The notes beneath the pieces are model-generated. The model was given only the letters and a program-made list of their open reading frames with translations, had not been told where the DNA came from and ran no database searches. Both the position numbers and the translations under genes were made by a program. 64,000 bases of DNA from an uncultured candidate division WWE3 bacterium (GTDB taxonomy: Bacteria; Patescibacteriota; WWE3; UBA101185; UBA10185). Numbering within the stretch: position 1 is the first letter of the stretch; each line of letters starts with the position of its first letter. The DNA is taken from NCBI GenBank assembly GCA_963765125.1, contig CAVXUZ010000005.1, positions 33,596 through 97,595 of the forward strand, read 5' to 3'. Shown piece after piece: positions 30,184 through 52,284 of this stretch.

Positions 30184-31253
30184 TGTCAGAAAAATTAAAC
30201 GCCACACCGCTTTTAGAGAAAATATTGGACCTAAACGCGTCAGATTTACTGCTATCTGTAACAAATGTACCTATTATTAGAGTTCACGGTAAACTTCAGC
30301 AATTGCCCGGTTACGAGCCTTTAACCGCTTTAGACATTGAGTTTTTTCTTTCGCAAATACTAAAAGCAGATCAAAAGGACATTTTAGACGTTAATAAGGA
30401 GATTGATTTTTCAGTTGCGCTTGGTAATAAGGCAAGATTTAGGGTAAATGCATTTTTTCAAAAAGGCTACCCCTCAGTTGCTTTAAGAGCAATCCCCTTG
30501 CGAGTTCCGAACTTAGAAGAATTAAATTTGCCAAAAATTGTTGAACAACTAACAAATCTTAAACAGGGATTAGTGCTAGTAGTCGGTCCCACTGGTCATG
30601 GAAAGTCCACGACGATTGCTGCAATGATCGAAAAGATCAACGAAACCAGATCAGAGCATATCATCACGATAGAAGACCCAATTGAGTACATCTTTTTTAA
30701 TAAGAAATCACTCATTGAGCAGCGCGAAATGTACCTAGACACCCACTCTTGGGATGTTGCACTCAAATCAGTTTTACGCCAAGATCCAAATATTGTTATG
30801 GTTGGTGAGATGCGAGATACGCAGACGATGTCTGCAGTTTTGCAGATTTCTGAAACAGGCCATTTGGTTTTTGCTACACTCCACACAAATTCAGCTGCGC
30901 AGACAATTGAAAGAATCATTGTCTCCTTCCCAGAAAGTAAGCAAGGTCAGGTTAGACAGCAGTTATCACAGGTTATTGAGGCCGTAGTCTCTCAAAGGTT
31001 AGTGCAGGCAAAAGGTGGAGGTTTAATACCTGCGGTTGAAATATTACTTTCGACCGGAGCTGTGAGAAACTTGATACGAGAAGGTAAAACCCACATGATA
31101 GACAACGTAATTAGCACAAGTTTAGGTATAGGCATGATAGACCTAGACCACAGCCTTGCAGAGCTGGCGATGCAAAACAAAGTAGATATTGAAGAGGCGA
31201 TGAAATATTCACTCAAACCAGATAATTTAAGGACTGCTCTCAAGCAGAAATAA
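30183..31253 (+). CDS. pilT: Twitching-motility (retraction) ATPase PilT
   Basis: VVGPTGHGKSTTIAAMIEKIN (Walker A). ITIEDPIEY. AIRNLIREGK motif region (GAVRNLIREGK). 356 aa. 1-nt overlap with pilB. Confidence 0.85.
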   Translation: MSEKLNATPLLEKILDLNASDLLLSVTNVPIIRVHGKLQQLPGYEPLTALDIEFFLSQILKADQKDILDVNKEIDFSVALGNKARFRVNAFFQKGYPSVALRAIPLRVPNLEELNLPKIVEQLTNLKQGLVLVVGPTGHGKSTTIAAMIEKINETRSEHIITIEDPIEYIFFNKKSLIEQREMYLDTHSWDVALKSVLRQDPNIVMVGEMRDTQTMSAVLQISETGHLVFATLHTNSAAQTIERIIVSFPESKQGQVRQQLSQVIEAVVSQRLVQAKGGGLIPAVEILLSTGAVRNLIREGKTHMIDNVISTSLGIGMIDLDHSLAELAMQNKVDIEEAMKYSLKPDNLRTALKQK

Positions 31254-31255
31254 AT

Positions 31256-32458
31256 ATGCCAGTTTACGCTTACACTGCCTCAGATACTGCCGGTAATAAA
31301 AGAACAGGTGCAGTTGACGCGCGAAACAGAGAGTTTGCCGTTGGTCTGCTTAAAAACCAAGGTTTATACGTTATTGAACTGCACGAAAAACATGATTCTT
31401 TGATTGATAAACTAGGTCTTTTTGGTAATGTTCCTGAAGGTGAAGTTGTAGCTTTCACAAGACAATTTTCAACAATGATCAGCGCAGGGCTGCCAATTTC
31501 ACGTGCGTTAGACGTTCTATCTTCACAATCAACAAGTAAAGCTCTGAGAAAAGTATTAATCGATGTTTTAAGAGATATTGAAGGCGGTTCTTCACTCTCG
31601 ATGGCGCTTGGTAGATACCCAGACGCGTTTCCTGCTACGTATCAAGCTTTAGTTCGCGCAGGCGAAGCATCCGGTAAGCTCGACGATATTTTAAAACGAC
31701 TCGCTACAACATTAGAAAAACAAAGGGAGCTAAACTCTAGTTTCAAATCGGCGATGATTTATCCGACAATTGTTTTCTTTGCCATGATAGGTGTTTTTGT
31801 GTTAATGATGATATTTGTTATACCAAAACTCGCAGATATGTATGAAAGTTTAAACGTTGAGTTGCCCGCAACAACCCAGATGATGATAGATACTTCAAAC
31901 TTCATTGTAAACAATATCGTAGTTATGATTATTTTATCTCTCGGAGGCATAATCGCCTTAAGATCATTTTTGAAAACAGAAACCGGCCACGAGTTAGTCG
32001 CAGAAATTACATTTAAACTACCAGTTTTTGGAAAAATAAATAAGCAAAAAGAAGTTACAGATTTTACAAGGACGTTAGGTTTGTTAATCGCATCTGCTAT
32101 ACCAATTGTTGAGGCATTAAATATCACTGCTGGTGTTATGAAAAATAAATTTTATCGCGAGGCGGCAATAAACGCAGCGGCTGCTGTTGAAAAAGGTAAC
32201 AAACTTTCGGATTACATCAGATCAAATTCAGTTTTTCCTCCCCTACTCGGGCAAATGACTAGTGTTGGTGAAGAGACGGGGCAACTCGACGAAGTATTAG
32301 ACAGAGTTGCAAACTATTTAGAGGGTGAAGTTGACCACGCAGTAAAAGGGCTATCTTCTGCACTAGAACCAATAATTTTGTTAATGCTGGGCGGGATGGT
32401 TGGGTTCTTGATTATCTCGATTATTACACCGATTTATAAGATTACGAGTGCGCTGTAA
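31256..32458 (+). CDS. pilC: Type IV pilus platform protein PilC (GspF family)
   Basis: Two GspF repeats, each with a cytoplasmic domain plus TM segments (…GLPISRALDVL…; …AIPIVEALNITAGV…). 400 aa. Confidence 0.85.
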   Translation: MPVYAYTASDTAGNKRTGAVDARNREFAVGLLKNQGLYVIELHEKHDSLIDKLGLFGNVPEGEVVAFTRQFSTMISAGLPISRALDVLSSQSTSKALRKVLIDVLRDIEGGSSLSMALGRYPDAFPATYQALVRAGEASGKLDDILKRLATTLEKQRELNSSFKSAMIYPTIVFFAMIGVFVLMMIFVIPKLADMYESLNVELPATTQMMIDTSNFIVNNIVVMIILSLGGIIALRSFLKTETGHELVAEITFKLPVFGKINKQKEVTDFTRTLGLLIASAIPIVEALNITAGVMKNKFYREAAINAAAAVEKGNKLSDYIRSNSVFPPLLGQMTSVGEETGQLDEVLDRVANYLEGEVDHAVKGLSSALEPIILLMLGGMVGFLIISIITPIYKITSAL

Positions 32459-32598
32459 AAAACCAATTATTAGGTTGGTGATTGCAACAACAGTAATTGT
32501 TAGCTTTGCTAATTGGATATAAATCTGTTTAGAATTAATAAGTTGAACGTAATTATTTATTATAAAAATATAATTTTGAAAGGGGGTGTATTAGAACA

Positions 32599-33096
32599 AT
32601 GAGAAATCAAAAAGGTTTTACGCTAGTTGAGCTCTTGGTCGTTATCGCAATTGTCGGTATTTTAGCCGGTGTTGTATTGATCGCAATTAATCCTGCCACA
32701 TTATTGGCAAAAGCGAGAGATTCACAGAGATTGCAAGATATAGATACCATCAACAAGGCAATCGGTTTAGCATTAGCAGACAACGAGGTTACACTCGGTG
32801 CAACTGGTACATGTGCCACCTGCGACAGTTTATCAGGTTCACAGACAGTTGAGGGTGCAAACGGTTGGGTAAAGTTCACAATTCCTACAGGAAAGACTGG
32901 ACTTAGCAAATATATCGCCGCACTTCCTGTTGATCCTACAAACACAGGAGCGTTGGTTTATACATTTGCATCAACTGCAACAGCTTATGAGTTGAATGCA
33001 GTACTTGAGAATGTAGATAACGTAGCAAAAATGACTACAGATGGTGGCGACGACGCCGCAGTTTTCGAAGTGGGAACAAATCTTACTATCCTCTAA
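32599..33096 (+). CDS. pilA: Type IV pilin, probable major pilin (leader MRNQKG|FTLVELLVVIAIVGILAG)
   Basis: Canonical G-F cleavage site and E+5. A very strong Shine-Dalgarno (GAAAGGGGGTG) lies 8 nt upstream. A stem-loop terminator lies immediately downstream. Shares C-terminal blocks with the pilins at 25059 and 48299. Confidence 0.8.
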   Translation: MRNQKGFTLVELLVVIAIVGILAGVVLIAINPATLLAKARDSQRLQDIDTINKAIGLALADNEVTLGATGTCATCDSLSGSQTVEGANGWVKFTIPTGKTGLSKYIAALPVDPTNTGALVYTFASTATAYELNAVLENVDNVAKMTTDGGDDAAVFEVGTNLTIL

Positions 33097-33152
33097 TCAC
33101 CTGTCTAAGATTGGATGATAGTAACGCCCATGTGCACATGATAGCGTTACGT

Positions 33153-33186
33153 GAAAAGCCCTCCTAATCGAGGGCTTTTCTAACTT
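33153..33186 (+). terminator. Rho-independent terminator after the major pilin gene
   Basis: GAAAAGCCCTC-ctaatc-GAGGGCTTTTC is a perfect 11-bp stem followed by a T-rich tail. A second palindrome GTAACGC...GCGTTAC lies at 33121-33150. Confidence 0.6.
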
Positions 33187-33212
33187 TAGAAATATGCTAA
33201 ACTTACTAAGGT

Positions 33213-34097
33213 ATGTTGCAACAAGTATTGTTATACATTTTGGTTTTTGTCTCAGGTCTATTTTTTGGATCATTTTTAAATCTCGTTTCTGATCGAGTAA
33301 CTAAAGGTAAATCAGTTTTATTTGGTAGATCACAATGCGACCATTGTAAAAAACCACTTGGTGCAAAAAATCTTATTCCTGTTGTTTCGTATATTTTACA
33401 AAGAGGAAAGTGTGCAAAGTGCCACAAGAAAATTTCATTTTACTATCCATTTTCAGAAATTCTTACCGGTTTAGCATTTGTTGGTGCTGCAGTTTCAGCA
33501 AGAATCACAGTTTTAGTTAACGTTTCAACAATATTTACATTCATATATCTTCTTGGTGTTGCTAGCTTTTTTATCATCTTGCTTTTAACAGATATGAAAG
33601 AAAGAGTAATCCCAAATAAAATTATTTACCCAGCAATTATTTTTGTTTTCTCATTTTTAATATTAAGCGCAGTAATTTATTTCTACATGTATTACATCCA
33701 ACTTAAAGCTGACACGTTTGGTCAATATTTACTCGACGCTGGAATTATGAAAGTACAAATCTTAAACTCATTAGTCTCTCTGGGAATTTTGATTTTAAGT
33801 TCCCTGGTTATTTCTGCATTCTTTGCGTTTTTAGTTTGGATAACAAAGGGCAGAGGTATGGGAGCTGGCGACATTAGACTCGGATTTTTAATTGGGTTGT
33901 TTAACGGCTATCCATTTAACTTTATCGCAATATTTTTAGGATTTGTCTTGGGAGCCCTAGTAAGTTTGGTTCTAGTTGTTTTAAAGAAAAAGACGATGAA
34001 AGACACAATTGCATTTGGGCCATTTTTAATCTTAGGGAGTGTTGTAGCAATGATCTGGGGAAGCCTAATTTTACAGTGGTATACAAACCTTCTCTAA
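33213..34097 (+). CDS. pilD: Prepilin peptidase / N-methyltransferase PilD (A24 family)
   Basis: N-terminal zinc-binding CDHCKKPL...CAKCHKKI. Catalytic Asp regions (TDMKERVIPN; GAGDIRLGFLIG). 294 aa, polytopic. Confidence 0.85.
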   Translation: MLQQVLLYILVFVSGLFFGSFLNLVSDRVTKGKSVLFGRSQCDHCKKPLGAKNLIPVVSYILQRGKCAKCHKKISFYYPFSEILTGLAFVGAAVSARITVLVNVSTIFTFIYLLGVASFFIILLLTDMKERVIPNKIIYPAIIFVFSFLILSAVIYFYMYYIQLKADTFGQYLLDAGIMKVQILNSLVSLGILILSSLVISAFFAFLVWITKGRGMGAGDIRLGFLIGLFNGYPFNFIAIFLGFVLGALVSLVLVVLKKKTMKDTIAFGPFLILGSVVAMIWGSLILQWYTNLL

Positions 34098-35248: not shown

Positions 35249-35635
35249 ATGGAAGAAAACATTACAAAGAAAAAAACCGTACTTTTAGTTGAGGACGAAG
35301 TAGATTTAGTAGATTTATACACAGAAATATTAAACGAAGCGGGTTACGATGTACTCCCCTCTTATGACGGTGAAGATGGAATTTATAAAGTAAAAAATGA
35401 AAAATGGGATTTGTTACTTTTAGATATTATGCTCCCAGAAAAAGATGGTATGGCTGTACTTGAAGAAATGCAAAAAACTGAGGCCTCAAAAAAGGGACCG
35501 GTGGTGCTACTCACAAACCTAAACAGTGAAGATCTCATAGAACGTGCATACAAACTAGGTGCCGATGACTATTTAATCAAATCAGAAATTTCGTTAGACG
35601 ATATTGTTAAAAAAGTAAAACAGTATCTTAGTTAA
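35249..35635 (+). CDS. Single-domain response regulator (receiver only), divergent from the histidine kinase
   Basis: VLLVEDEVDLVDLYTEIL...DLLLLDIMLPEKDGMAVLEEMQ...VVLLTNL...K. Start taken at ATG 35249 (MEENITKKK); the track uses TTG 35228. The stop overlaps the start of the next gene. Confidence 0.8.
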   Translation: MEENITKKKTVLLVEDEVDLVDLYTEILNEAGYDVLPSYDGEDGIYKVKNEKWDLLLLDIMLPEKDGMAVLEEMQKTEASKKGPVVLLTNLNSEDLIERAYKLGADDYLIKSEISLDDIVKKVKQYLS

Positions 35636-36171
35636 TGTTTAAGCTTAGTAAAAAAAGAATCACAATTATTTTATTTGTTATTGTCATTTTGGCAATTACC
35701 ACAGCCGCCGTCATTTTTATACTTCCAAAGATAACAAATAAAAAAAGTGTAGTTAGAGATCAGCCAATTGCATACGAGGACACTAAAGACACAATTGTTC
35801 CCGAAGAAGCAGCAGCGTTGATAGAGTTAAATGCAATTTTAGATCCTGAAACCGACTATTGGGCAGACTGGAGCTGGCAAGCAAAATATGCAGAGTTTAT
35901 CATAAGCAATTTAAGTGTTGCTGATAATTACATTGTTGGCTACATTAGCAGACCGGTGGCGTTATCGAATAATAATGCGCAGATAGTAAAACACCCGTTA
36001 TGTGATCCTACAAAGTCGATTGCGGTTTCCAAAGATGATCCACTTAGAGGTATAAATGCAAAAGGCTTTGAATTTATGCAACGTGCAAGCTCTGGAGATA
36101 TTTTCTACACCAATTGTTTAGACGAGGAGTGTTTTAACATTGGCAATAACTGTGTCTTAGTAGAATTTTAA
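35635..36171 (+). CDS. Membrane-anchored small secreted protein, member 1 of a C-x3-C-x6-C C-terminal motif family
   Basis: N-terminal signal-anchor KRITIILFVIVILAITTAAVIFIL. C-terminus ...ASSGDIFYTNCLDEECFNIGNNCVLVEF. Clear paralog of the 40272 gene and related to 36174. Confidence 0.6.
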   Translation: MFKLSKKRITIILFVIVILAITTAAVIFILPKITNKKSVVRDQPIAYEDTKDTIVPEEAAALIELNAILDPETDYWADWSWQAKYAEFIISNLSVADNYIVGYISRPVALSNNNAQIVKHPLCDPTKSIAVSKDDPLRGINAKGFEFMQRASSGDIFYTNCLDEECFNIGNNCVLVEF

Positions 36172-36173
36172 AA

Positions 36174-36749
36174 ATGAAAAAATTAATAAACAAAAAAATA
36201 TTACGAATCTTATTAATAATACTTGGCGTTATATTGCTGGGCTTTATAGTTAGCCCATTTATTTTTAGTAAACGAGTAGAAATTAATGAGTTTGACCAGA
36301 TTTATATAAAGAGTAATAGATTTGTTTTACCTAAATTAATTTCAATAGAAAAAAGACAAGATATCGGGGTTAAAGAGGCAGGTTTAATCAAAACCGAAAT
36401 TATCTCTCCTGAGGGTAAAACTGGTATTAACGAACTTTCTTATTGGGATACGTGGACTTGGAACACAAAATTGGTAAAACTAGAAATCTTAAGAGTTTCT
36501 GTTGAAAGCGGTAATGTTTACGCAAGTCTATTACTTCCTGCCGAGTCGAGTGGGTTGTCACCAGAAAAAGAGTACGAAATCAAATGCAGTGTTGATGAAA
36601 CATCTGTTATTTATTTTCGTGATCCAGCTAATCGCAACGATGAGTATAAACCAGCGATTGAACTGTTAGCGTCCGGTGACCTGTTCTACGCATATTGTTT
36701 GGATTCTCAATGTAGTTCTCTTGGTCGACGCTGTATTATTGAGCGCTAA
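36174..36749 (+). CDS. Membrane-anchored small secreted protein, member 2 of the C-x3-C-x6-C family
   Basis: Signal-anchor ILRILLIILGVILLGFIV. C-terminus ...LASGDLFYAYCLDSQCSSLGRRCIIER. Confidence 0.55.
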   Translation: MKKLINKKILRILLIILGVILLGFIVSPFIFSKRVEINEFDQIYIKSNRFVLPKLISIEKRQDIGVKEAGLIKTEIISPEGKTGINELSYWDTWTWNTKLVKLEILRVSVESGNVYASLLLPAESSGLSPEKEYEIKCSVDETSVIYFRDPANRNDEYKPAIELLASGDLFYAYCLDSQCSSLGRRCIIER

Positions 36750-36772
36750 AAACTACCTTTAGTTTAAGGTAC

Positions 36773-36811
36773 CCCATAGTTGATATTTGCCACATAATTT
36801 GAGACAATCCA
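36773..36811 (+). promoter_or_regulatory. Conserved upstream element CCCATAGTTG-N16-TGAGACAAT, copy 1 of 4 (upstream of the 36855 lipoprotein gene)
   Basis: Same bipartite motif as at 40866, 41465 and 42179. Confidence 0.4.
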
Positions 36812-36854
36812 ATTAAACTTAAATAACCCGAAAAAACAATAAAAAGGAGGCAAA

Positions 36855-37748
36855 ATGAAGACTAAGTTTTTTTCAGGGTCTTGGCTATTTAGCCGCACTT
36901 TAAAAACTCTAATTCTCGTACTACTTATTACGTCAGTTGTTATGACAATACTTATCGGCTGTACGCCTGCGACGTCAGTTCTAGTCGTAGAACCGATTGT
37001 AACTACAAACACACCGCTAATAGAGATTGTTGGCGAGTCGACAGCTACAGCAGTACCTACGGCTACCCTATTTCCGACCATGGTTGTTACGCCCGAGCCA
37101 ACTACAATGCCAGAAAATTTTGGGTGGCCCATCTTACAAGAAATGCCTTACGGTGAGGAACGTGCAGAGATTGAGGCTTCGCTTGCAAAGGACCCTAACC
37201 TTGTAAAAGGAACTCCCTCTGAGAATGAGCGGTTCATGATTGCTGATGTATGGGGTTTATGGCCACTTCTTTATAATCCAAACACAGGGATGTTACCTGA
37301 CTATTCAAATAAAAGTCTTCCAGATGACCTTTACAGTTATCTGAATGTTTGGTATAGAGGCAGTCATAAATTTTATGTCGACACCGGAACAAGTGGTAAC
37401 CCGGCGATGTTTGCAGAACAACTAGACGGTAATCTACCGATAATGTTTAAATACCCATTTGTGGTGTATGAATATGCAAATAGCACGTCGAGTAGTCTTT
37501 GCCAGTTTTTCGAAGCCGGAACGTTAGCCGGCTATGGATTGGGTGAAGAGACTGTCGATGGGCAGCCAAGTGACATACCAACCGGAATCGCATATCTGGT
37601 TGAAAGGTTTGGTGATTCTAAAATCATCAATGATGCAGACAGGCTGTACTGTAGTAACTTTGATCCTGTCTCAAACGACTTCTTAACCATAGCAAAGGCA
37701 AAAGGTTACGATACTATAGTTGCACAGGTTTTGGAAAAGCTCAAATAA
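36855..37748 (+). CDS. Putative lipoprotein or secreted protein (297 aa), unknown function
   Basis: Strong SD (AAAAAGGAGGCAAAATG). Signal peptide with lipobox-like LIGC. Thr/Pro-rich linker. An upstream CCCATAGTTG...TGAGACAAT motif is shared with the 40949, 41548 and 42261 genes. Confidence 0.5.
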   Translation: MKTKFFSGSWLFSRTLKTLILVLLITSVVMTILIGCTPATSVLVVEPIVTTNTPLIEIVGESTATAVPTATLFPTMVVTPEPTTMPENFGWPILQEMPYGEERAEIEASLAKDPNLVKGTPSENERFMIADVWGLWPLLYNPNTGMLPDYSNKSLPDDLYSYLNVWYRGSHKFYVDTGTSGNPAMFAEQLDGNLPIMFKYPFVVYEYANSTSSSLCQFFEAGTLAGYGLGEETVDGQPSDIPTGIAYLVERFGDSKIINDADRLYCSNFDPVSNDFLTIAKAKGYDTIVAQVLEKLK

Positions 37749-37847: not shown

Positions 37848-40097
37848 GTGAACAATACTTCACCTTGCCTAAAACTTAATACCATATTATTAATCCGTTT
37901 GTTAATTTTTATTACTAGTGCTTTTTTACTTTCATTTGCTACAAAAAACGTTATTTACGCAGGCTGCGCCGCAAACGAATGTGACGGACCAGGTGAATAC
38001 GAGTGCGAGAATGGAACGATGTGCTGTACAGGCGGCGGATGTCCATCAAACAGATGTCCAGCCAACTGCACTGCTAGAATTTATTCGGGTTATTGGACGT
38101 GTAATTGTACACTATCAAGAGAGGTATGTTCCATTCCTACACCGTATGATTGTGAGCCTTGCATTACTGAAAGGGTGTGTGGACCAGAGACAACATGTGG
38201 TTATGTGAGTAGTTCAACATGTGCACAATGGGCTACCCGTTCTTACCCATGTCGACAAAAGACATGTTGGTATAATTATTGTTGGTACACTTGGGGCACA
38301 TGCAAGTCAACATACTGTGCAAGATACTATCAGGTTTGGCGCTGCTCAACCACAGACGTTTGCAAAAATGTTAAAAATTGTAGTACTTGCTACAAAAAAA
38401 ATTGCTTCATAGAGTACTACGAAGATCAAACAACCTACACCGCTAGAGGTACATGTAAATACTGTACACAGGGTGGCGGCGGGGGTGGTGGCTCTTGCAC
38501 AACTAACCCAACTGCGCCTACTTTAAATACCCCATTTGAAGGTTCGTCAATGCAAGGTAGTCTAGCAATTGATTTTAGCTGGAATGCCCCGACAAGTTGG
38601 GGGGCTAATTGTACGCCCGCAAGTTACTTTCTAATGGTTGATGACGAGAGTAGTTTTACAGACCCCCGAGTGCACAGCGTGTCGTACCCAACTTCGACTA
38701 CATCACAAACCGTTACAATGCCGGGAGAAGATACTTATTTTTGGAGAGTTCAGGCGTGTAATCAACGCGGCTGTACCTCATCTGTCACGAGGTCATTTAA
38801 CTTTAGTTGCGGTATAGCTCCTGGTAGAGCAACTAACCCATCGCCGTCAGATGGTGCGACCGACGTTACTATTGCACCAACACTATCATGGGATGGCCCA
38901 TCAGATTGGGGTTCAGCATGTGGTATGAACAACAACAATAGATTCACAGTTTACGGTCAGGTTAAAAATGGAGTATGTGAGGGTCCAGGTTCTGGCTATT
39001 CTGCAATACCTTCTTGTACAAATTTACCTGAGGGTACGACATCTTGTATAGACCCATTTTTCAACACCAGCAGTACCCCTTACTGTTGGTATGTTTCCAC
39101 AAACAACGGTACAGAGACGACGCTTTCTGCCTCTACTGCTGATGAAGTATGGGAGTTTAGAACAGAAGAGCCCATCACTTATACAAATTGGGTTACTGCA
39201 TTGTTTGGTGATTTTTATGCAGGAGGTTTAACCGAGCAATACCCAAGCACAACACGCTATGTGACGCCTTGGAATCCTCCATATGCAGCATATGAAAAAG
39301 AACCTACCTCCTCTGATGAGCCAAACGTAGCACTTATCACAAGCAATGATACGGATATAACAAATGATAATGGTGCTAATGAATACAATCCCGGATCTCA
39401 ATCAAATCTATCAGTTGAATTTGCTAACTTTGAAGAAACATGGCCTGCAAGCTACCGCGGTACTCCCCCAGCTTCAGCTATTAATTTACCTTTAAATGGA
39501 GGCTCTTGTTCAGATATCTTCACAGGTAGTACAAAGCTTGATCCTTACGAAGTATATGAAGCTGATGCAAGCTGTATGTCAGAAGCAATCAATGCAGTTG
39601 ATGGTAACCCCAATGGCTATTCACTAGCCTCAGACGGTTATACAGTTATCTTTGTTACAGGAAGCACAAACCTTGAAATAGACAGTCCATTTACCACATC
39701 AAATGATGATTACCGTGTGGTATTTGTTACTGGACCTAATGTTTCAGTACAGATAGATAGAAACTTAAAGTTAGCAACCGATCCTGATTTTAACAGTGAG
39801 CCTTTAATTGAAGCTGCCTTTATCGTTACCAAAGACTTAACCATTGAGGGTGCTGCTAACGATTCATCTATAGACCTAACTACTGATCCAGATGGTTCAA
39901 TTATGGTTGAGGGTCCACTTATCGCAAGAACAGTAAACTTTAACAGAAACAGAGGTCTAACTAATCAATATCCATCAGAGATTGTTAAATACAATCCTAA
40001 CTACATATATAACCTAACAGAACAAGAAAGAACCTCTCTAAAAAACAATGGTTCAGGCCTGTTTGTTATTGATATTACTTGGATGAATGTAGACTAG
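37848..40097 (+). CDS. Giant secreted protein 1 (749 aa): signal peptide, extremely Cys-rich module, Gly7 linker, two FN3-like domains, and a conserved C-terminal domain shared with the 43554 gene
   Basis: About 40 Cys in residues 38-218 (CAANECDGPGEYECENGTMCC...CKYCTQGGGGGGGSC). FN3-like repeats with the W...Y.W.VQACN..GC...TRSF pattern. C-terminal 261 codons nearly identical at the DNA level to 44931-45714. Confidence 0.7.
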   Translation: MNNTSPCLKLNTILLIRLLIFITSAFLLSFATKNVIYAGCAANECDGPGEYECENGTMCCTGGGCPSNRCPANCTARIYSGYWTCNCTLSREVCSIPTPYDCEPCITERVCGPETTCGYVSSSTCAQWATRSYPCRQKTCWYNYCWYTWGTCKSTYCARYYQVWRCSTTDVCKNVKNCSTCYKKNCFIEYYEDQTTYTARGTCKYCTQGGGGGGGSCTTNPTAPTLNTPFEGSSMQGSLAIDFSWNAPTSWGANCTPASYFLMVDDESSFTDPRVHSVSYPTSTTSQTVTMPGEDTYFWRVQACNQRGCTSSVTRSFNFSCGIAPGRATNPSPSDGATDVTIAPTLSWDGPSDWGSACGMNNNNRFTVYGQVKNGVCEGPGSGYSAIPSCTNLPEGTTSCIDPFFNTSSTPYCWYVSTNNGTETTLSASTADEVWEFRTEEPITYTNWVTALFGDFYAGGLTEQYPSTTRYVTPWNPPYAAYEKEPTSSDEPNVALITSNDTDITNDNGANEYNPGSQSNLSVEFANFEETWPASYRGTPPASAINLPLNGGSCSDIFTGSTKLDPYEVYEADASCMSEAINAVDGNPNGYSLASDGYTVIFVTGSTNLEIDSPFTTSNDDYRVVFVTGPNVSVQIDRNLKLATDPDFNSEPLIEAAFIVTKDLTIEGAANDSSIDLTTDPDGSIMVEGPLIARTVNFNRNRGLTNQYPSEIVKYNPNYIYNLTEQERTSLKNNGSGLFVIDITWMNVD
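39267..40050 (+). repeat. 784-bp intragenomic direct repeat, copy 1 (partner at 44931-45714); in-frame coding sequence
   Basis: Base-by-base comparison of the printed lines. The copies are identical except two adjacent third-position synonymous differences at 39956-39957 (ggtcta versus gggtta). Confidence 0.85.
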
Positions 40098-42846: not shown

Positions 42847-43575
42847 GTGATGAATGTATTGCCCAAAAGAAACGCCATCCTGGTAAGTGTAATTATAATC
42901 TTGTTTACTCTAACGCTATTATCCATCGTGCCGTACTTAACGTTAAGAAGCTACATCAAAAGAAATGTTGATAAAAATATAGAATATGTGTTTTACGTTG
43001 AGGTAGAAGATTCATTAAAAAATTCAAAATATCCAAATCTTGCGACTTGGTACCTAAGTAAGGTACAGAACTTTTATAAAGCAGTACTTAATAGGGAGTT
43101 TCTTGTAGAGCTACCTGATTATAATACTGTTTTTCAAGCCTACGACTACACCGAATACCCAGCTGTATTTTTGGTCAAGAATTATGACTTACCAACAGAC
43201 GAGATAAGTATTGAATTTGTAATGCCCACTGATTTTGCTGAATTTACAGCAGTAGCAAAGTTGAACTGCGGTAAGGCAACAACGCGTGCTGGTGTATACA
43301 GTGCTAGCCAGCAAACCGAGAAATGGGCAATACTCAAGGAGTTACGACAGAGTAATCTTAGCGAAGAAGACAGGTTTACTTTGATTGGTAAATTATATCG
43401 CGCAATTCCGTTTGAAGAACAGCTATCAGTGGAAAATGGTGTTGGCCAGACAATTCAGGAGATGCTGGAGCGATCAGAAATAACACAGGACAAAAGGCAG
43501 CTAAAATTGGTAACAACTTGTAGAGAGGACCAGTGTGACAATACCTCTGAGCAATGTATTCTGTACATTCAATAA
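42847..43575 (+). CDS. Membrane-anchored secreted protein (242 aa), divergent member 4 of the C-x3-C-x6-C family; overlaps the start of giant protein 2 by 22 nt
   Basis: Signal-anchor AILVSVIIILFTLTLLSIV. C-terminus ...KLVTTCREDQCDNTSEQCILYIQ. Confidence 0.55.
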   Translation: MMNVLPKRNAILVSVIIILFTLTLLSIVPYLTLRSYIKRNVDKNIEYVFYVEVEDSLKNSKYPNLATWYLSKVQNFYKAVLNREFLVELPDYNTVFQAYDYTEYPAVFLVKNYDLPTDEISIEFVMPTDFAEFTAVAKLNCGKATTRAGVYSASQQTEKWAILKELRQSNLSEEDRFTLIGKLYRAIPFEEQLSVENGVGQTIQEMLERSEITQDKRQLKLVTTCREDQCDNTSEQCILYIQ

Positions 43576-45761
43576 ATATGAAAATTAATAAAAACTATAC
43601 TAATAAGAGTGCCTTACCTTTTGTAGCGTCATTGTTTCTTGCGTGTGTTATTTTGTTTAGTCCTGTTGCCGATGCAAAAATTTACAATCCTAAACCAAAA
43701 CCTGGAAAATATATTAACTGGGACAGAGTTTACAAAGAGAGAATAAATAAAATTCATGAGAAGGATGCCAAGATGGCGGCGACTTACGCAAGACTGGCAG
43801 CTAAAAACCCAGATAAGCTGAGAGATTTAATCGATACATGGGCAGCAAACAAAGGTATTACTCATGATCAGTTTAATGTCTGGGAGGTAAAGAATCTTTA
43901 TTCAATAATCTCGGGAGGAAGCGTTGTCCTTGGTAGCTTTGGGCCGTCTGCGGACTATGAGTTTATTGTCAGCGATGACGGCACAAAGATGTATTGGAGT
44001 GACGCCACCGGCGGTTATACAAGTATAACTGTACCTGCGCGTTACACTACAGTATCAGGTCAGTATGCGTCATATAATTCATCAACTGGTGTTGTTTGTT
44101 ACAGTTGGATTGGTTGTACTATACCAACTACCGCATCTAATGGAAATACAAACAATGGATGTAGTGGGCTACCTACGGCGCCACCACTTGTTAGTCCCCT
44201 CAACGGTGCAACAATCTTTGAGAATAAAACGATTAGTTTTCAGTGGGGTGCACCCACTGGGTGGGGTACAAACTGTCCAACTCATGTATATAGGCTACAA
44301 GTTGACGACGAAAACACGTTTAGTGAGCCTTCTGCTTTAGATTCTGGTTTTGATGGTAGTACAACCTCAACGACAGCAGATTTTACTTTAAATAAAGAGT
44401 ACTTTTGGAAAGTTCAAGCTTGTAACGCAAAAGGATGCACCCCCTCTGTAACAAGATCATTCATACTTGGTTGCGGTATCGCTCCAGGAGTTGCATCAAA
44501 CCCAACACCTTCAGACGGTGCAATAGATGTAGTTATTGCACCAACACTGTCTTGGGATGGTCCATCCGATTGGGGCTCAGCATGCGGTATGGATAACAAT
44601 AATACATTTACGGTATACGGTCAGGTTAAAAATGGACTGTGTGAAACTCCAGGCCCAGGTTATTCTGCAATTCCAACTTGTACAAACCTCTCTGAAGCAT
44701 CAACATCTTGTGTAGATCCATTCTTTAACACTCGAAGCACACCATATTGCTGGTATGTAGGAACAAACAATGGAACAGAAAGTAATACGTCAGCAGCAAC
44801 AGCTGACCAAGTATGGGAGTTTAGAACTGAAGACCCCCTTCTCTTTGAAAACTGGGTAACCACACTTTTTGGTGATTTTTATGCAGATACTCTTGCAGAA
44901 CAATATCCTAAATCAGCAAACTACGCATCCCCTTGGAATCCTCCATATGCAGCATATGAAAAAGAACCTACCTCCTCTGATGAGCCAAACGTAGCACTTA
45001 TCACAAGCAATGATACGGATATAACAAATGATAATGGTGCTAATGAATACAATCCCGGATCTCAATCAAATCTATCAGTTGAATTTGCTAACTTTGAAGA
45101 AACATGGCCTGCAAGCTACCGCGGTACTCCCCCAGCTTCAGCTATTAATTTACCTTTAAATGGAGGCTCTTGTTCAGATATCTTCACAGGTAGTACAAAG
45201 CTTGATCCTTACGAAGTATATGAAGCTGATGCAAGCTGTATGTCAGAAGCAATCAATGCAGTTGATGGTAACCCCAATGGCTATTCACTAGCCTCAGACG
45301 GTTATACAGTTATCTTTGTTACAGGAAGCACAAACCTTGAAATAGACAGTCCATTTACCACATCAAATGATGATTACCGTGTGGTATTTGTTACTGGACC
45401 TAATGTTTCAGTACAGATAGATAGAAACTTAAAGTTAGCAACCGATCCTGATTTTAACAGTGAGCCTTTAATTGAAGCTGCCTTTATCGTTACCAAAGAC
45501 TTAACCATTGAGGGTGCTGCTAACGATTCATCTATAGACCTAACTACTGATCCAGATGGTTCAATTATGGTTGAGGGTCCACTTATCGCAAGAACAGTAA
45601 ACTTTAACAGAAACAGAGGGTTAACTAATCAATATCCATCAGAGATTGTTAAATACAATCCTAACTACATATATAACCTAACAGAACAAGAAAGAACCTC
45701 TCTAAAAAACAATGACTCAGGTCTGTTTGTTGTTGATGTTACTTGGATTAGCGACGAATGA
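43554..45761 (+). CDS. Giant secreted protein 2 (735 aa): signal peptide, non-Cys-rich N-terminal domain, FN3-like domains, and the same conserved C-terminal domain as the 37848 gene
   Basis: Signal peptide ALPFVASLFLACVILFSPVADA. The FN3-like region is 70-85% identical to protein 1. The C-terminal 261 codons (44931-45714) are nearly identical in DNA to 39267-40050. Confidence 0.7.
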   Translation: MYSVHSINMKINKNYTNKSALPFVASLFLACVILFSPVADAKIYNPKPKPGKYINWDRVYKERINKIHEKDAKMAATYARLAAKNPDKLRDLIDTWAANKGITHDQFNVWEVKNLYSIISGGSVVLGSFGPSADYEFIVSDDGTKMYWSDATGGYTSITVPARYTTVSGQYASYNSSTGVVCYSWIGCTIPTTASNGNTNNGCSGLPTAPPLVSPLNGATIFENKTISFQWGAPTGWGTNCPTHVYRLQVDDENTFSEPSALDSGFDGSTTSTTADFTLNKEYFWKVQACNAKGCTPSVTRSFILGCGIAPGVASNPTPSDGAIDVVIAPTLSWDGPSDWGSACGMDNNNTFTVYGQVKNGLCETPGPGYSAIPTCTNLSEASTSCVDPFFNTRSTPYCWYVGTNNGTESNTSAATADQVWEFRTEDPLLFENWVTTLFGDFYADTLAEQYPKSANYASPWNPPYAAYEKEPTSSDEPNVALITSNDTDITNDNGANEYNPGSQSNLSVEFANFEETWPASYRGTPPASAINLPLNGGSCSDIFTGSTKLDPYEVYEADASCMSEAINAVDGNPNGYSLASDGYTVIFVTGSTNLEIDSPFTTSNDDYRVVFVTGPNVSVQIDRNLKLATDPDFNSEPLIEAAFIVTKDLTIEGAANDSSIDLTTDPDGSIMVEGPLIARTVNFNRNRGLTNQYPSEIVKYNPNYIYNLTEQERTSLKNNDSGLFVVDVTWISDE
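44931..45714 (+). repeat. 784-bp direct repeat, copy 2 (partner at 39267-40050)
   Basis: See copy 1. Identity breaks exactly at both ends (g/c before, g/a after). Confidence 0.85.
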
Positions 45762-45974: not shown

Positions 45975-46841
45975 ATGATAAAAAAATACAATACTGCTCT
46001 AAAAGAATCAGAAAAAGGACAAGCGTTGCTTTTTGTTGTAGTCGCTATGACAATTGCTTTGTCTATTGGAATTAATTCAAGTGTCAGAACACTTACCTCC
46101 CTGTCAAGAACTTCAAGATCAGACACGGCCTCAAGAGCTTTAGCTGCAGCAGAGGGCGGCATTGAGAGATATCTTGCACTCTCTACAACCGAACTAGAGA
46201 GTACGATTACTGGCAATTGCGCAGCAGGAACTTATGATCAAACAGCAGAAGCTTGCCTGATAGAGTTTGATGCTTCTTCTGATGCAATTGTTTCTCAAGC
46301 TCACGTTACTGTGCAAAGATACGAACCAGATTTCTATCCCTTTGATTTAGAGAGTGGCCAAGTTAAAGAAGTGAATCTTTATGATTACAACAGCGGTAAT
46401 CATTACGGTGCTTCTACTGTCGAAGTTTGTTGGAATTCAAAACCACAATCAGAGTTAATGTATATTGCATACAAAGACTCCGGTATTAGTGCTCGTGGTG
46501 GTCTTACCGGTTCAAACGCACCAGATGCTCCTTACAGCAGCAAAGGTTTTGAAAGCGCAGGACCGGGCAGAGACGGATACGCTAACTGCAAAACTATAGA
46601 TATAACTAATGATGTTTACGGGCTGAGAATTAGATCTGTTGGTGATGCTTCTAGCGTTGCAGTGTTCCCTACCGGCAATGAGAGACTCCCTCTTCAAGGT
46701 TATACAATTAAATCTATTGGAAGAATACAACAGGACCAAGGCGTTACCGCTACGAGAACAATTAGCATTATAAGAAGTCTAGCTTATCTCCCTGTAAGCT
46801 TTGACTATGCGTTATATTCAGAGGGCTCGATTACTAAATAA
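45975..46841 (+). CDS. PilX-like minor pilus protein (PilX_N-type N-terminus, no prepilin cleavage site)
   Basis: MIKKYNTALKESEKGQALLFVVVAMTIALSIGINSSV...ASRALAAAEGGIE. Paralog of the 50417 gene (shared C-terminal FDYALYS / FDYALFQ). Confidence 0.6.
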   Translation: MIKKYNTALKESEKGQALLFVVVAMTIALSIGINSSVRTLTSLSRTSRSDTASRALAAAEGGIERYLALSTTELESTITGNCAAGTYDQTAEACLIEFDASSDAIVSQAHVTVQRYEPDFYPFDLESGQVKEVNLYDYNSGNHYGASTVEVCWNSKPQSELMYIAYKDSGISARGGLTGSNAPDAPYSSKGFESAGPGRDGYANCKTIDITNDVYGLRIRSVGDASSVAVFPTGNERLPLQGYTIKSIGRIQQDQGVTATRTISIIRSLAYLPVSFDYALYSEGSITK

Positions 46842-46848
46842 TCTGACC

Positions 46849-47298
46849 ATGCCCAAAAATCAATATCTAAAAACACAAAGTGCCTTTACGCTAATCGAAC
46901 TGTTAATTGTTATTTCTGTTGTTGGCATATTATCCGGAGTTTTGGTAAATGTTATAGATTCGAAAGGTCAAAAAAATAAAGCACTAGACAGTGTTCATCG
47001 AAAAGACATAAACGATTTAGCAGTTTCAATCGAGTCTTACAGGACAGCAGAAGGTTCATACCCCGATGAGGGAACAGAAAACAACCCTCTTGACCCCAGC
47101 GCGTCTACGAGAAATACTGCCGCGGTTTATATAACAGAGTGGCCAGTGGGTGTTATTTATATAAAAAACGATCCTGATTTTGCAATTTATATTCAAAAAG
47201 AAGCTGATACAAATTTTATAAAGTATAATTCGGTGTGGAGAGAATTCAGAGAGTGCGCTGATACAACAAATCCAACCAGTATTACCGACTGTGATTAA
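46849..47298 (+). CDS. Type IV (minor) pilin
   Basis: Start moved to the internal ATG. Leader MPKNQYLKTQSA|FTLIELLIVISVVGILSGV with E+5. Confidence 0.7.
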   Translation: MPKNQYLKTQSAFTLIELLIVISVVGILSGVLVNVIDSKGQKNKALDSVHRKDINDLAVSIESYRTAEGSYPDEGTENNPLDPSASTRNTAAVYITEWPVGVIYIKNDPDFAIYIQKEADTNFIKYNSVWREFRECADTTNPTSITDCD

Positions 47299-47734
47299 AA
47301 AAGAATTCGGATTTACCTTAATAGAACTGCTCGTAGTTGTCTCCGTTATTGGAGTTCTCGTGGGAGTAACTGTAAATGTTATTGATGGAAGAAGGCAAAA
47401 GGCAGTTGCGCAAGATTCTGCTAAAAAAACTAATTTAGAAAAAGTGTGTGCAGGTTTACAAGCTTACTATCAAGGTGAAGATTCATATCCGGCTGAAGGT
47501 GACGTAAATGTACCTCTTCATAGTACTGCAGCAACCGCGTCGACTTTAGCTTTTTATATTAATTCTTGGCCTGATGGTTTTATATACAACGTTAACGGGA
47601 ATGACTTTTCAATTCATGTGCAAAAGTCTGTTGATGAAAACTTTTTTAAATGCGGTACTGCTTGGAGAACTGTTCAAGAATGTGCAAGTACTACAGATGC
47701 CAATGATGTAAGTAGTTGCAATCCAATTCCCTAA
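47291..47734 (+). CDS. Type IV (minor) pilin
   Basis: Leader MIKKEFG|FTLIELLVVVSVIGVLVGV. 8-nt overlap with the previous gene. Confidence 0.75.
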   Translation: MIKKEFGFTLIELLVVVSVIGVLVGVTVNVIDGRRQKAVAQDSAKKTNLEKVCAGLQAYYQGEDSYPAEGDVNVPLHSTAATASTLAFYINSWPDGFIYNVNGNDFSIHVQKSVDENFFKCGTAWRTVQECASTTDANDVSSCNPIP

Positions 47735-47790
47735 AGAATATTTCACTCTCCTACCTTGACACCGCAACGCTAAAATCTCATACTTAATCT

Positions 47791-48799: not shown

Positions 48800-48825
48800 A
48801 AAAGTATAAGTGTTAGAATTTTAGT

Positions 48826-49864: not shown

Positions 49865-49865
49865 A

Positions 49866-52281: not shown

Positions 52282-52284
52282 TCG

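What the first reader, a model, noticed from the sequence alone, without database searches (positions are those of the whole stretch)
37959..38502. Extremely cysteine-rich N-terminal module (about 40 Cys in about 180 aa) plus a Gly7 linker in a bacterial secreted protein
Residues about 38-218 of giant protein 1 contain roughly one Cys every 4-5 residues: CAANECDGPGEYECENGTMCCTGGGCPSNRCPANCTARIY…CWYNYCWYTWGTCKSTYCARYY…CSTCYKKNCF…CKYC. A GGGGGGGS hinge follows before the FN3-like domains. Such knottin/EGF/granulin-like disulfide-dense modules are unusual in bacteria. Here it sits as a variable 'head' on the conserved stalk. It may be a receptor-binding or toxin-like domain.
Basis: seen in the sequence. 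Interest (0 to 1): 0.6.

Follow-up and report, generated by a model that had tools for sequence, protein, structure and literature searches.

The report
Disulfide-rich head on pilus-locus adhesin
A secreted protein encoded in the type IV pilus gene cluster of an uncultured Saccharibacterium starts with a small, previously undescribed cysteine-packed domain whose two ends are strongly conserved and whose middle varies sharply between relatives, which makes it a plausible candidate for the part that recognises the host cell surface.

Summary
The cysteine-rich stretch is real and in the correct frame, but it is overstated. It has 29 Cys in 182 aa, of which 28 lie in the 167-aa head proper (16.8% against 0.78% in the other window proteins). 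It does not have about 40 Cys, and the protein is 749 aa, not giant.

The head has three parts:
- a conserved 7-Cys N-terminal cap (C-x4-C-x7-C-x5-CC-TGGG-C-PS-x2-C) directly after the signal peptide;
- a hypervariable Cys- and aromatic-rich insert;
- a conserved GTCxxC clasp followed by the Gly7 linker.

The same cap and clasp occur in four sequence homologues and in 15 metagenome loci. Insert length ranges from 35 to 139 aa. All 11 complete mature proteins have an even Cys count, which fits full disulfide bonding.

No Pfam, NCBIfam or PDB family matches the head. EGF, granulin and hevein patterns fail. The cap spacing fits an inhibitor-cystine-knot framework and equals that of Dickkopf-4 CRD1, but not significantly (E 0.7). 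AlphaFold2 models were too poor to test the fold.

The gene sits in a Saccharibacterial type IV pilus locus, upstream of the PilX-like and minor-pilin genes, with a paralogue that carries a different head.

Best reading (0.5): the head is the disulfide-stabilised ligand-binding tip of a modular, probably pilus-associated adhesin. It is a new variant of a known kind.

The parts
37848..40097 (+). Gene for the 749-aa secreted modular protein (GTG start), P0001
   Evidence: Only long ORF here. Exact protein is present in the public collection. A terminator-like hairpin at 37778-37813 precedes it.
37848..37961 (+). Sec-type signal peptide (aa 1-38, ...KNVIYA|G); no prepilin motif
   Evidence: Read from the sequence: n, h and c regions. 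In every relative the first cap Cys lies 0-3 residues after an AxA-like site. The cleavage site is inferred; there was no SignalP run.
37965..38057 (+). Conserved N-cap, aa 40-70: CAANECDGPGEYECENGTMCCTGGGCPSNRC (7 Cys)
   Evidence: MCCTGGGCPS is identical in P0003-P0006, which are only ~50% identical overall. 15 caps aligned in A3 (17 unique caps were collected) have 13 invariant columns. The spacing fits the generic ICK consensus and the Dkk4 CRD1 framework.
38058..38432 (+). Variable region, aa 71-195 (19 Cys), including the semi-conserved GYWTCNC (38088-38108) and the ~108-aa Cys/Tyr/Trp-rich insert (38109-38432, 16 Cys)
   Evidence: Insert length is 35-139 aa in relatives, with no alignable sequence apart from W-x-C(C). 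L009 and L016 diverge only here. No DNA tandem repeat and no second copy in the window.
38433..38465 (+). Conserved C-terminal clasp, aa 196-206: TYTARGTCKYC
   Evidence: Y..xGTCxxC is invariant in A2 and present in 11 delimited heads.
38472..38495 (+). GGGGGGGS flexible linker (aa 209-216)
   Evidence: Read from the sequence. A Gly/Pro-rich linker occupies the same place in all relatives.
38496..39164 (+). Two FN3-like domains (aa 217-320 and 321-439)
   Evidence: BLASTP E 7e-13 to the FN3 repeats of P0009, whose Pfam fn3 hit is 7e-35. Foldseek of the model hits FN3 domains. There is no direct Pfam hit above threshold.
39165..40094 (+). Conserved C-terminal domain (aa 440-749), family unknown; nt 39330-40049 are 100% identical to the paralogue
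   Evidence: It holds most of the invariant columns of A1. An HMM of aa 590-730 hits L005h, L012 and L015. No Pfam or PDB match.
43554..45761 (+). Paralogue (735 aa, P0002): same stalk, unrelated Cys-poor head
35635..37748 (+). Upstream companions: two small membrane-anchored proteins (35635-36171, 36174-36749; C-terminal CLDxxCxxxGxxC) and a 297-aa lipoprotein (36855-37748)
   Evidence: Translations. Homologues of the small proteins lie next to head-bearing genes in L001, L002, L003, L010, L011, L013, L014 and L020.
45975..51226 (+). PilX-like proteins (45975-46841, 50417-51226) flanking about six or seven (minor) pilin and pilin-like genes
   Evidence: Prepilin GFTLIELL motifs. In relatives the big gene is 1 bp from (L001, L005), 19 bp from (L002), or overlaps (L015) the PilX-like gene.
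28420..34097 (+). Type IV pilus core: PilB, PilT, PilC, pilin, prepilin peptidase
   Evidence: NCBIfam: PilB 6.7e-171, PilT 1.7e-125, PilC/GspF 1.6e-104. Pilin and PilD are read from the translations and from synteny with L001.
51250..53755 (+). PilM, PilN, PilO
   Evidence: Synteny with L001, where Pfam PilM_2, PilN and PilO are on record. PilM is 72% identical.

Best explanation
The stretch encodes the N-terminal head of a Sec-secreted, modular surface protein of a Saccharibacterium (Patescibacteria/CPR).

Anatomy. The head is a small domain held together by disulfides rather than by a hydrophobic core: 28 Cys, which would make 14 disulfides, and only 7% Leu/Ile/Val/Met. It has three parts.
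- A conserved 7-Cys cap sits at the mature N-terminus.
- A hypervariable insert rich in Cys, Tyr, Trp and Thr follows.
- A conserved GTCxxC clasp closes the module.
A Gly7 hinge tethers the head to two FN3-like spacer domains and a conserved 310-aa C-terminal domain.

Proposed mechanism. The C-terminal domain holds the protein on the cell, most likely on the type IV pilus tip complex formed by the PilX-like protein and the minor pilins encoded next to it. The FN3 domains and the hinge project the head outwards. Cap and clasp form a rigid, protease-resistant scaffold, and the variable aromatic-rich insert is the ligand-binding surface, probably for a host-envelope glycan or protein. Different paralogues and strains therefore present different specificities.

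Shown: the anatomy, the conservation pattern, the even Cys counts, the genomic linkage and the localised hypervariability.

Inferred: disulfide bonding, the knot topology, pilus association and binding function.
For: Frame and module
- The ORF is open and homologues conserve the Cys columns.
- Cap and clasp are conserved in P0003-P0006 and in 15 metagenome loci, while the insert ranges from 35 to 139 aa.
- All 11 delimited heads and all 11 complete mature proteins have even Cys counts (40, 14, 36, 32, 30, 48, 24, 34, 24, 28, 30; chance about 1/2048).
- In every head Cys is 15-20%, aliphatic residues are 4-11% and aromatic residues are 7-17%.
- 22 of the 24 Cys of P0003 align with window Cys, against 39% identity for non-Cys residues.

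Hypervariable insert
- L009 and L016 come from one metagenome. They are 82-100% identical in DNA on both sides and 44-49% identical for ~130 nt exactly between cap and clasp.

Stalk and paralogue
- The paralogue has an unrelated head, and DNA identity rises along the gene to 100% over 39330-40049.

Pilus linkage
- The locus encodes PilB/T/C/D, pilins and PilMNO.
- L001 is fully syntenic.
- The big gene is 1 bp from, 19 bp from, or overlaps the PilX-like gene in L001, L005, L002 and L015, and lies in a pilus cluster in L018.

Adhesin character
- Head-bearing relatives carry PA14 (57.9 bits, cut-off 24), weak CBM60 matches and FN3.

Literature
- Type IV pili mediate host attachment in Saccharibacteria, and large proteins in these loci that lack a PilD signal are proposed tip adhesins (PMC11623550).
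- Type IV pili are essential in Southlakia (PMC10633639).
- CPR genomes are enriched in an MdbA-like oxidoreductase plus VKOR, which can form extracytoplasmic disulfides (10.1101/335083).
- Large Cys-rich extracellular proteins in CPR have been proposed to act in attachment (PMC4736985).
Against: - There is no structural evidence. AlphaFold2 gave mean pLDDT 39 for the full protein (head below 50) and 57 for the minimal head, and Foldseek found nothing. No coordinates were available, so disulfide geometry could not be inspected.
- No ligand is known, and no carbohydrate-binding family matches the head.
- Pilus linkage is not universal. L008, L011 and L012 show no pilus genes within the available flanks.
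- In this window the copy next to the PilX-like gene is the paralogue, not the Cys-rich copy.
- The C-terminal domain matches neither PilY1/PilC nor any other known pilus-docking domain.
- The strong conservation of the cap is not explained by a scaffold role alone.
- The metagenome loci were selected with the motif itself, so the invariance of MCCTGGGCP among them is by construction.
- No disulfide-forming enzyme was found in this window.
Confidence: 0.5

Rival explanations
1. The head does the same job, but the protein is not on the pilus. It is a cell-surface adhesin or spike, retained by the small membrane-anchored proteins and the lipoprotein encoded just upstream. Its position in the pilus locus reflects co-regulation only.
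For: - Homologues of the small membrane proteins are the most widespread neighbours of head-bearing genes, including loci without visible pilus genes (L011, L013, L014, L020).
- There is no prepilin motif and no PilY1-type domain.
- The L008 variant carries the head directly on a C-terminal membrane helix.
Against: - The big gene has tight operon-like spacing with the PilX-like and minor-pilin genes in four loci.
- Synteny is conserved across lineages whose PilB proteins are only 51-80% identical.
Confidence: 0.25
2. The head is a passive structural cap. It is a hyperstable, protease-resistant knot that protects the exposed N-terminus or stiffens the stalk, and binding is done by other domains (PA14, CBM-like or FN3).
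For: - Cap and clasp are highly conserved, as expected of a folding nucleus.
- Relatives carry recognised lectin-type domains downstream.
Against: - The window protein has no recognisable lectin domain apart from the head.
- The sharply localised hypervariability and aromatic enrichment of the insert are not expected of a purely structural plug.
Confidence: 0.12
3. The head is a toxin-like or inhibitor-like knottin effector, for example a channel blocker, membrane-active peptide or protease inhibitor, which the adhesin presents to the host cell.
For: - The cap spacing fits the ICK consensus in 10 of 11 heads.
- It equals the framework of the ICK-like subdomain of Dkk4 CRD1.
Against: - The similarity is not significant (E 0.7) and the spacing test has low specificity.
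- The heads are homologous to each other, so the 10 matches amount to one observation.
- There is no processing site to release a peptide.
- The conserved part, not the variable part, would be the pharmacophore, which fits poorly with a toxin-target arms race.
- The motif is absent from the viral contigs.
Confidence: 0.08
4. The head is a metal-binding or redox-active cysteine cluster (metallothionein-like or Fe-S-like), not a disulfide domain.
For: Very high Cys content with CC, CxC and CxxC pairs.
Against: - The protein is Sec-exported.
- The head is rich in aromatic residues, unlike metallothioneins as I recall them.
- Cys counts are even in 11 of 11 proteins.
- No metal-binding family matches.
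Confidence: 0.04
5. Artefact: a wrong frame, or a low-complexity non-coding stretch.
For: Non-coding frames in this window can reach 22-27 TGY codons per 167 codons.
Against: - It is the only open frame.
- The full-length homologue P0003 covers 99% of the protein, head included.
- Cap and clasp are conserved in many loci.
Confidence: 0.01

Closest known systems
Inhibitor cystine knot (knottin) mini-domains, and the ICK-like C-subdomain of Dickkopf CRD1 (colipase-type fold)
   Same: - The cap has six Cys with the spacing C-x6/7-C-x5-CC-x4-C-x4-C, which falls within the ICK consensus.
- With the preceding Cys, the framework C-x2-C-x6-C-x5-CC-x4-C-x4-C of P0004 is identical to Dkk4 C63-C90, including the Met before CC and the Gly after it.
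- In Dkk4 these Cys pair I-IV, II-V and III-VI (PMC6078440).
- By analogy, the window protein would pair C45-C60, C53-C65 and C59-C70.
   Different: - The profile match is not significant (E 0.7).
- There is no Pfam hit, and no structure or connectivity data.
- Here the knot-like cap is only the first quarter of a 167-aa domain with 14 presumed disulfides.
- It sits on a 749-aa bacterial surface protein, not on a free peptide or an animal signalling protein.
PilY1/PilC-type type IV pilus tip adhesins, and PilX1/PilX2 of Nanosynbacter lyticus TM7x
   Same: - It is a large protein with a Sec signal and no prepilin motif.
- It is encoded with the minor pilins.
- One end is conserved and the other is variable and presumably binds the target.
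- Type IV pili are needed for host attachment in Saccharibacteria (PMC11623550, PMC10633639).
   Different: - No PilY1/PilC beta-propeller or any other known docking domain is detectable.
- No sequence relative was found outside a tiny family: 7 proteins in 5.8 billion clusters.
- Tip location is untested.
Large cysteine-rich extracellular proteins of CPR bacteria (Peregrinibacteria, PMC4736985)
   Same: They are secreted, large, Cys-rich proteins of host-dependent ultrasmall bacteria, proposed to act in attachment and to vary between strains.
   Different: - Those proteins average about 7% Cys spread over about 1,650 aa, with weak similarity to the Myxococcus Cys-rich repeat.
- Here 17% Cys is concentrated in a discrete N-terminal module with its own conserved cap and clasp.
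- NCBIfam finds no such repeat in the window protein.
Hevein-type chitin-binding domain (CBM18)
   Same: It is a small disulfide-rich module with a C-x(4,5)-CC core, and with aromatic residues that could stack on sugars. A GlcNAc-containing cell wall would be a sensible target.
   Different: - The PROSITE-type pattern, recalled from memory, fails on loop lengths and on the Ser and Gly positions.
- No Pfam Chitin_bind_1 hit was found even at E<=10.

Membership tests
Knottin / inhibitor cystine knot | Six Cys with spacing CX3-7CX3-6CX0-5CX1-4CX4-13C | tested here: met
   Window C45..C70 matches, as do 10 of 11 heads at the same place, against 1.8 expected in shuffles. The pattern has low specificity and the heads are homologous, so this counts as one observation.
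Knottin / inhibitor cystine knot | Disulfide connectivity I-IV, II-V, III-VI, with the third disulfide threading the ring | not testable with these tools
   The AlphaFold2 models are of low confidence (pLDDT below 50 for the head; 57 for the minimal head) and coordinates are not returned.
Knottin / inhibitor cystine knot | Detectable sequence or fold similarity to a known member | tested here: not met
   - phmmer and profile searches of the PDB find only Dkk4 CRD1, at E 0.7.
- The best Foldseek hit has E 3.9.
- No Pfam hits.
EGF-like domain | Six-Cys EGF signature (C-x-C-x2-[GP]-[FYW]-x4-8-C) or a Pfam EGF match | tested here: not met
   0 of 11 heads match the pattern. There are no Pfam hits at E<=10.
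Granulin | Twelve-Cys ladder with four CC pairs (C-x-D-x2-H-C-C-P-x4-C), or a Pfam Granulin match | tested here: not met
   0 of 11 heads match the signature, and only P0006 fits a loose CC ladder. No Pfam hit.
Hevein / CBM18 | C-x(4,5)-C-C-S-x2-G-x-C-G-x(3,4)-[FYW]-C, or a Pfam Chitin_bind_1 match | tested here: not met
   0 of 11 heads match the pattern. No Pfam hit.
Dickkopf N-terminal cysteine-rich domain | Ten-Cys CRD1 with significant profile similarity | tested here: not met
   Only the C-terminal seven-Cys framework coincides. E is 0.7 at 13.7 bits, and the N-subdomain has no counterpart.
PilY1/PilC-type pilus tip adhesin | Sec signal, no prepilin (class III) signal | tested here: met
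   The N-terminus has n, h and c regions ending in VIYA|G and has no G-F-T-L-I-E motif. This was read from the sequence without a predictor.
PilY1/PilC-type pilus tip adhesin | Encoded with the minor pilin genes | tested here: met
   This holds in the window, L001, L002, L005, L015 and L018. It does not hold within the available flanks of L008, L011 and L012.
PilY1/PilC-type pilus tip adhesin | C-terminal PilY1/PilC beta-propeller domain | tested here: not met
   No Pfam or NCBIfam hit for the C-terminal 310 aa, and no PDB sequence relative. The fold is unknown because the model is poor.
PilY1/PilC-type pilus tip adhesin | Physical location at the pilus tip; needed for adhesion | not testable with these tools
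   This needs microscopy or genetics in an uncultured organism.
Fibronectin type III (stalk domains) | Sequence or fold similarity to FN3 | tested here: met
   - BLASTP E 7e-13 to the FN3 repeats of P0009.
- Foldseek E about 1e-4 with TM-scores of 0.5-0.7 (normalised by target length) to FN3 domains.
- The direct Pfam score is below threshold.
Myxococcus cysteine-rich repeat (TIGR02232) | NCBIfam model match | tested here: not met
   No NCBIfam hit for the whole protein at E<=0.01.
Metallothionein-like metal-binding cluster | Cytoplasmic, few aromatic residues (as I recall the family), thiolate-metal clusters | tested here: not met
   The protein has a signal peptide, 14% aromatic residues and even Cys counts. 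Metal content itself cannot be tested here.

The most novel reading that the evidence does not exclude
The cap-insert-clasp head is a bacterial cystine-knot display scaffold and the host-range determinant of Saccharibacterial pilus-mediated attachment. Under this reading:
- a conserved knot (predicted C45-C60, C53-C65, C59-C70) and clasp hold out a hypervariable, aromatic-rich loop array that recognises the host envelope;
- specificity is changed by recombination anchored on the conserved cap and clasp (as between L009 and L016) and on the identical 3' ends of the paralogues.
It would be the first knottin-type domain built into a bacterial pilus adhesin, and a handle on what decides which host an epibiont can attach to.
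Probability: 0.2. Interest if true: 0.8.

Novelty: new variant of a known kind. Interest (0 to 1): 0.55.

Why it matters
Saccharibacteria and other Patescibacteria live attached to host bacteria. Type IV pili are known to be needed for that attachment, but the molecules that recognise the host are largely unknown.

This locus offers a concrete candidate: a compact, undescribed disulfide-rich domain family with a fixed frame and a sharply hypervariable centre, placed at the outer end of a protein encoded with the pilus tip genes. If it binds host-envelope components, it would make host specificity testable by swapping inserts, and traceable in metagenomes.

Separately, a 70-170-aa bacterial scaffold with 6-14 disulfides that tolerates inserts from about 35 to about 140 aa would interest protein engineers.

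If it is only a stabilising cap, it is one more example of the Cys-rich surface proteins already noted in CPR genomes.

Tried and rejected
- Searches with the head alone found nothing. The word-indexed search of 5.8 billion clusters gave no hit. The exhaustive HMMER search of 1.84 billion representatives gave only the protein itself and a spurious repeat protein, P0013. The relatives came from the full-length search instead.
- A profile search with A1 added no new family members.
- Pfam, NCBIfam and PDB sequence searches of the head, the whole protein, 10 heads and 3 profiles gave no significant hit.
- AlphaFold2 on the full protein with 7 sequences gave pLDDT 39. On the 81-aa minimal head of P0004 with 5 sequences it gave pLDDT 57. 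Foldseek of the minimal-head model against the PDB was uninformative.
- Tandem-repeat origin of the insert is rejected, because TRF finds none.
- Variation driven by a diversity-generating retroelement has no support: there is no second copy or template repeat of the head in the window.
- A viral origin or a viral relative is rejected, because the motif is absent from the viral contigs.
- A lipoprotein reading of IYAGC is rejected, because relatives have AxA-type sites followed by variable residues and not a lipobox.
- Recoding of the in-frame stop in L008 is rejected, because the codon is TAA, not TGA.
- The exact look-up of P0001 in the contig index failed, and cluster names were empty. The organism was therefore inferred from L004 and L005, titled 'uncultured Candidatus Saccharibacteria', and from 72-82% identity of PilB, PilT, PilC and PilM to L001.
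Full report
**Observation.**
Window 37959-38502 lies in frame within ORF 37848..40097 (+), 749 aa with a GTG start. The five other frames are closed by stops.

The counts are off. There are 29 Cys in 182 aa, not about 40; 41 is the total for the whole protein. Mean spacing is about 6 residues. The head proper runs from C40 to C206: 167 aa with 28 Cys, or 16.8%. C217 belongs to the next domain and is conserved in the Cys-poor paralogue.

The other 62 proteins of the window hold 0.78% Cys (binomial P about 2e-28). However, non-coding frames of this AT-rich window reach 22-27 TGY codons per 167 codons, so composition alone would not prove anything. The frame is proven by the open reading frame and by the homologues.

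**Anatomy.**
The N-terminus is a Sec-type signal peptide ending in VIYA|G. Alignment with relatives divides the head into three parts.

- N-cap, aa 40-70: CAANECDGPGEYECENGTMCCTGGGCPSNRC, with seven Cys. The decapeptide MCCTGGGCPS is identical in P0003, P0004, P0005 and P0006, although these proteins are only about 50% identical overall. It is the best-conserved stretch of the whole protein.
- Variable region, aa 71-195. It has a semi-conserved W-x-C-(x)-C element and an insert rich in Cys, Tyr, Trp and Thr.
- Clasp, aa 196-206: Y-T-A-R-G-T-C-K-Y-C. It is followed by a Gly/Pro-rich linker in every relative.

The smallest heads (P0004, P0005 and L015, 69-72 aa) have 12-14 Cys. The window, P0003 and P0006 carry inserts of 123-139 aa. 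No DNA tandem repeat underlies the insert, and there is no second copy of it in the window.

After the linker come two FN3-like domains. The evidence is BLASTP E 7e-13 to bona fide FN3 repeats and Foldseek hits to FN3. A 310-aa C-terminal domain of unknown family follows.

**Relatives.**
- Searches with the head alone found nothing.
- The full-length search found a tiny family: 7 proteins among 5.8 billion clusters.
- Scanning metagenome contigs with a back-translated cap motif gave 15 loci with GC 36-54%.

The motif itself was imposed by that search. The following features were not imposed, and they recur:
- a signal peptide ending 0-3 residues before the first Cys;
- Tyr and Cys at fixed upstream positions;
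- the GTCxxC clasp and the Gly linker;
- the composition: Cys 15-20%, aliphatic residues 4-11%, aromatic residues 7-17%.

Downstream architectures differ: PA14 (57.9 bits), weak CBM60 matches, FN3 and EGF-like repeats. L012 and L015 share the C-terminal domain of the window protein.

**Evidence for disulfides.**
- All 11 delimited heads have even Cys counts.
- All 11 complete mature proteins have even Cys counts, including the paralogue and L005h, which lack the cap. The chance of this is about 1 in 2048.
- The near absence of aliphatic residues argues for a fold held by cross-links rather than by a hydrophobic core.
- CPR bacteria are reported to be enriched in an MdbA-like oxidoreductase with VKOR (10.1101/335083). 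None is encoded in this window.

**Evidence for a variable binding surface.**
- The in-window paralogue (43554-45761) has an unrelated, Cys-poor head. DNA identity to it rises along the gene from about 40% (head) to 40-57% and then 67-86% (the two FN3-like domains) and reaches 100% over 39330-40049. This indicates recent gene conversion of the C-terminal domain together with divergence of the N-terminus.
- L009 and L016, two variants from one metagenome, are 82-100% identical in DNA on both sides. They are only 44-49% identical over about 130 nt, exactly between cap and clasp.
- Long inserts are richer in Trp and Tyr than minimal heads.

**Context.**
The window is a housekeeping region of a Saccharibacterium. 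The closest loci are titled 'uncultured Candidatus Saccharibacteria', and their PilB, PilT, PilC and PilM proteins are 72-82% identical to those of the window.

The gene lies inside a type IV pilus cluster with this order:
1. PilB, PilT, PilC, a pilin, PilD
2. a histidine kinase and a response regulator
3. small membrane proteins and a lipoprotein
4. the big protein
5. (a second set of small genes and the paralogue)
6. a PilX-like protein and the minor pilins
7. PilM, PilN, PilO

L001 is fully syntenic. In L001 and L005 the big gene ends 1 bp before the PilX-like gene. In L002 the gap is 19 bp, and in L015 the two genes overlap. L018 (PilB 51% identical) has the big gene at the edge of its pilus cluster. 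L008, L011 and L012 show no pilus genes in the flanks that are held.

Homologues of the small membrane proteins (C-terminal CLDxxCxxxGxxC) accompany head-bearing genes in eight loci.

The literature supports the setting:
- Pili mediate Saccharibacterial host attachment, and large locus-encoded proteins without a PilD signal are candidate tip adhesins (PMC11623550).
- Pilus genes are essential in Southlakia (PMC10633639).
- Cys-rich extracellular proteins of CPR bacteria have been proposed to act in attachment (PMC4736985).

**Comparison with known Cys-rich families.**
- No Pfam family matches any of 10 heads even at E<=10. There is no NCBIfam hit and no PDB sequence relative.
- EGF, granulin, hevein and beetle-antifreeze patterns, written from memory, do not match.
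- The cap fits the generic ICK spacing. A profile of 15 caps picks only Dkk4 CRD1 from the PDB, at a non-significant E of 0.7. Even so, the seven-Cys framework C-x2-C-x6-C-x5-CC-x4-C-x4-C is identical to that of P0004.
- In Dkk4 the last six of these Cys form I-IV, II-V and III-VI in an ICK-like subdomain (PMC6078440). By analogy I predict C45-C60, C53-C65 and C59-C70 for the window protein, with C40 pairing outside the cap. L019, whose cap lacks that first Cys, fits this idea. This remains a lead, not a test.

AlphaFold2 could not settle the fold. The full protein gave mean pLDDT 39, and the minimal head gave 57.

**Interpretation.**
The head is best explained as the disulfide-stabilised distal module of a modular adhesin. 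In this model the conserved cap and clasp form a rigid frame, the hypervariable aromatic-rich insert is the ligand-binding surface, and the Gly7 hinge and FN3 domains act as a flexible spacer. The conserved and homogenised C-terminal domain would be the part that docks to a common partner, most likely the PilX-like and minor-pilin tip complex. Alternatively it docks to the co-encoded small membrane proteins. I put this at 0.5.

The main uncertainty is how the protein is displayed (rival at 0.25) and whether the head binds anything at all (structural cap only, 0.12). Toxin-like and metal-binding readings are weakly supported.

**Novelty.**
Cys-rich surface proteins in CPR bacteria, and pilus-locus adhesins in Saccharibacteria, are both known kinds. 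This particular cap-insert-clasp domain family is not described in Pfam, NCBIfam, the PDB or the papers searched. I therefore rate it a new variant of a known kind, with interest 0.55.

Noticed in passing
window 39330-40049 vs 45000-45713 (approx.): The two paralogous big genes are 100% identical over about 720 bp of their 3' parts, while their 5' parts are unrelated. This points to recent gene conversion. As direct repeats about 5.7 kb apart, they could also mediate a deletion that fuses head 1 to the copy next to the PilX-like operon.
   Followed up: partly
window 35635-36171, 36174-36749, 40272-40802 (and perhaps 42847-43575): This is a family of small proteins of about 180 aa with one N-terminal membrane helix and a C-terminal motif Y.(Y/N)CLD..C...G..C. 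It occurs in several copies here and next to head-bearing genes in L001, L002, L003, L010, L011, L013, L014 and L020. No Pfam family matches. It may be an anchor or chaperone for the big proteins.
   Followed up: partly
window 40916-41386, 41548-42099, 42261-42764: Three small secreted or lipoprotein paralogues lie between the two big genes. They share a motif VI(S/A)G..(V/I)C(G/A).P... and a second conserved Cys near the C-terminus. There is no family match.
   Followed up: no
L008 2251-2720: This is a head-only variant: signal peptide, cap and a short insert, then an in-frame TAA, then the clasp (GTCEYC), a Gly linker and a C-terminal membrane helix. It is either a disrupted gene or a sequencing error. 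If intact, the head would sit directly on the membrane (10 Cys, an even number).
   Followed up: partly
L005 1017-3467: A Saccharibacterial homologue (816 aa) has the same FN3-2 and C-terminal domains. Its N-terminal region is also Cys-rich (30 Cys in the mature protein) but different, with no MCCTGGGCPS cap. A fragment of a second PilX-like gene lies upstream (88-474).
   Followed up: partly
L013 1881-3983: This cap-bearing protein continues with CGNG..ESGE.CE modules, which look like the Myxococcus-type Cys-rich repeat, and with a (DDTG)6 acidic repeat. It shows that the cap is combined with other disulfide-rich modules.
   Followed up: no
L009 vs L016 (same metagenome, Ga0315268): The two variants are 82-100% identical in DNA, except for about 130 nt between cap and clasp (44-49%). 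This is a sharply bounded replacement cassette.
   Followed up: yes
window 25059-25556 (-): An orphan pilin gene (N_methyl motif, 9.4e-07) lies between the H+-pyrophosphatase and gyrB, about 3 kb from the start of the main pilus cluster.
   Followed up: no
window 18469-19506 (+) and 11332-13857 (+): A tyrosine recombinase (Phage_integrase, 1.9e-41) and a HerA/TrwB-like ATPase (841 aa) lie in the housekeeping part of the window. No tRNA gene lies beside the recombinase.
   Followed up: no
window 60522-60848 (-): A small ORF (108 aa) has 8 Cys in CxxC and CxC-type pairs, so it looks like a zinc ribbon. It lies upstream of the class A penicillin-binding protein gene and is the second most Cys-dense ORF in the window.
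   Followed up: no
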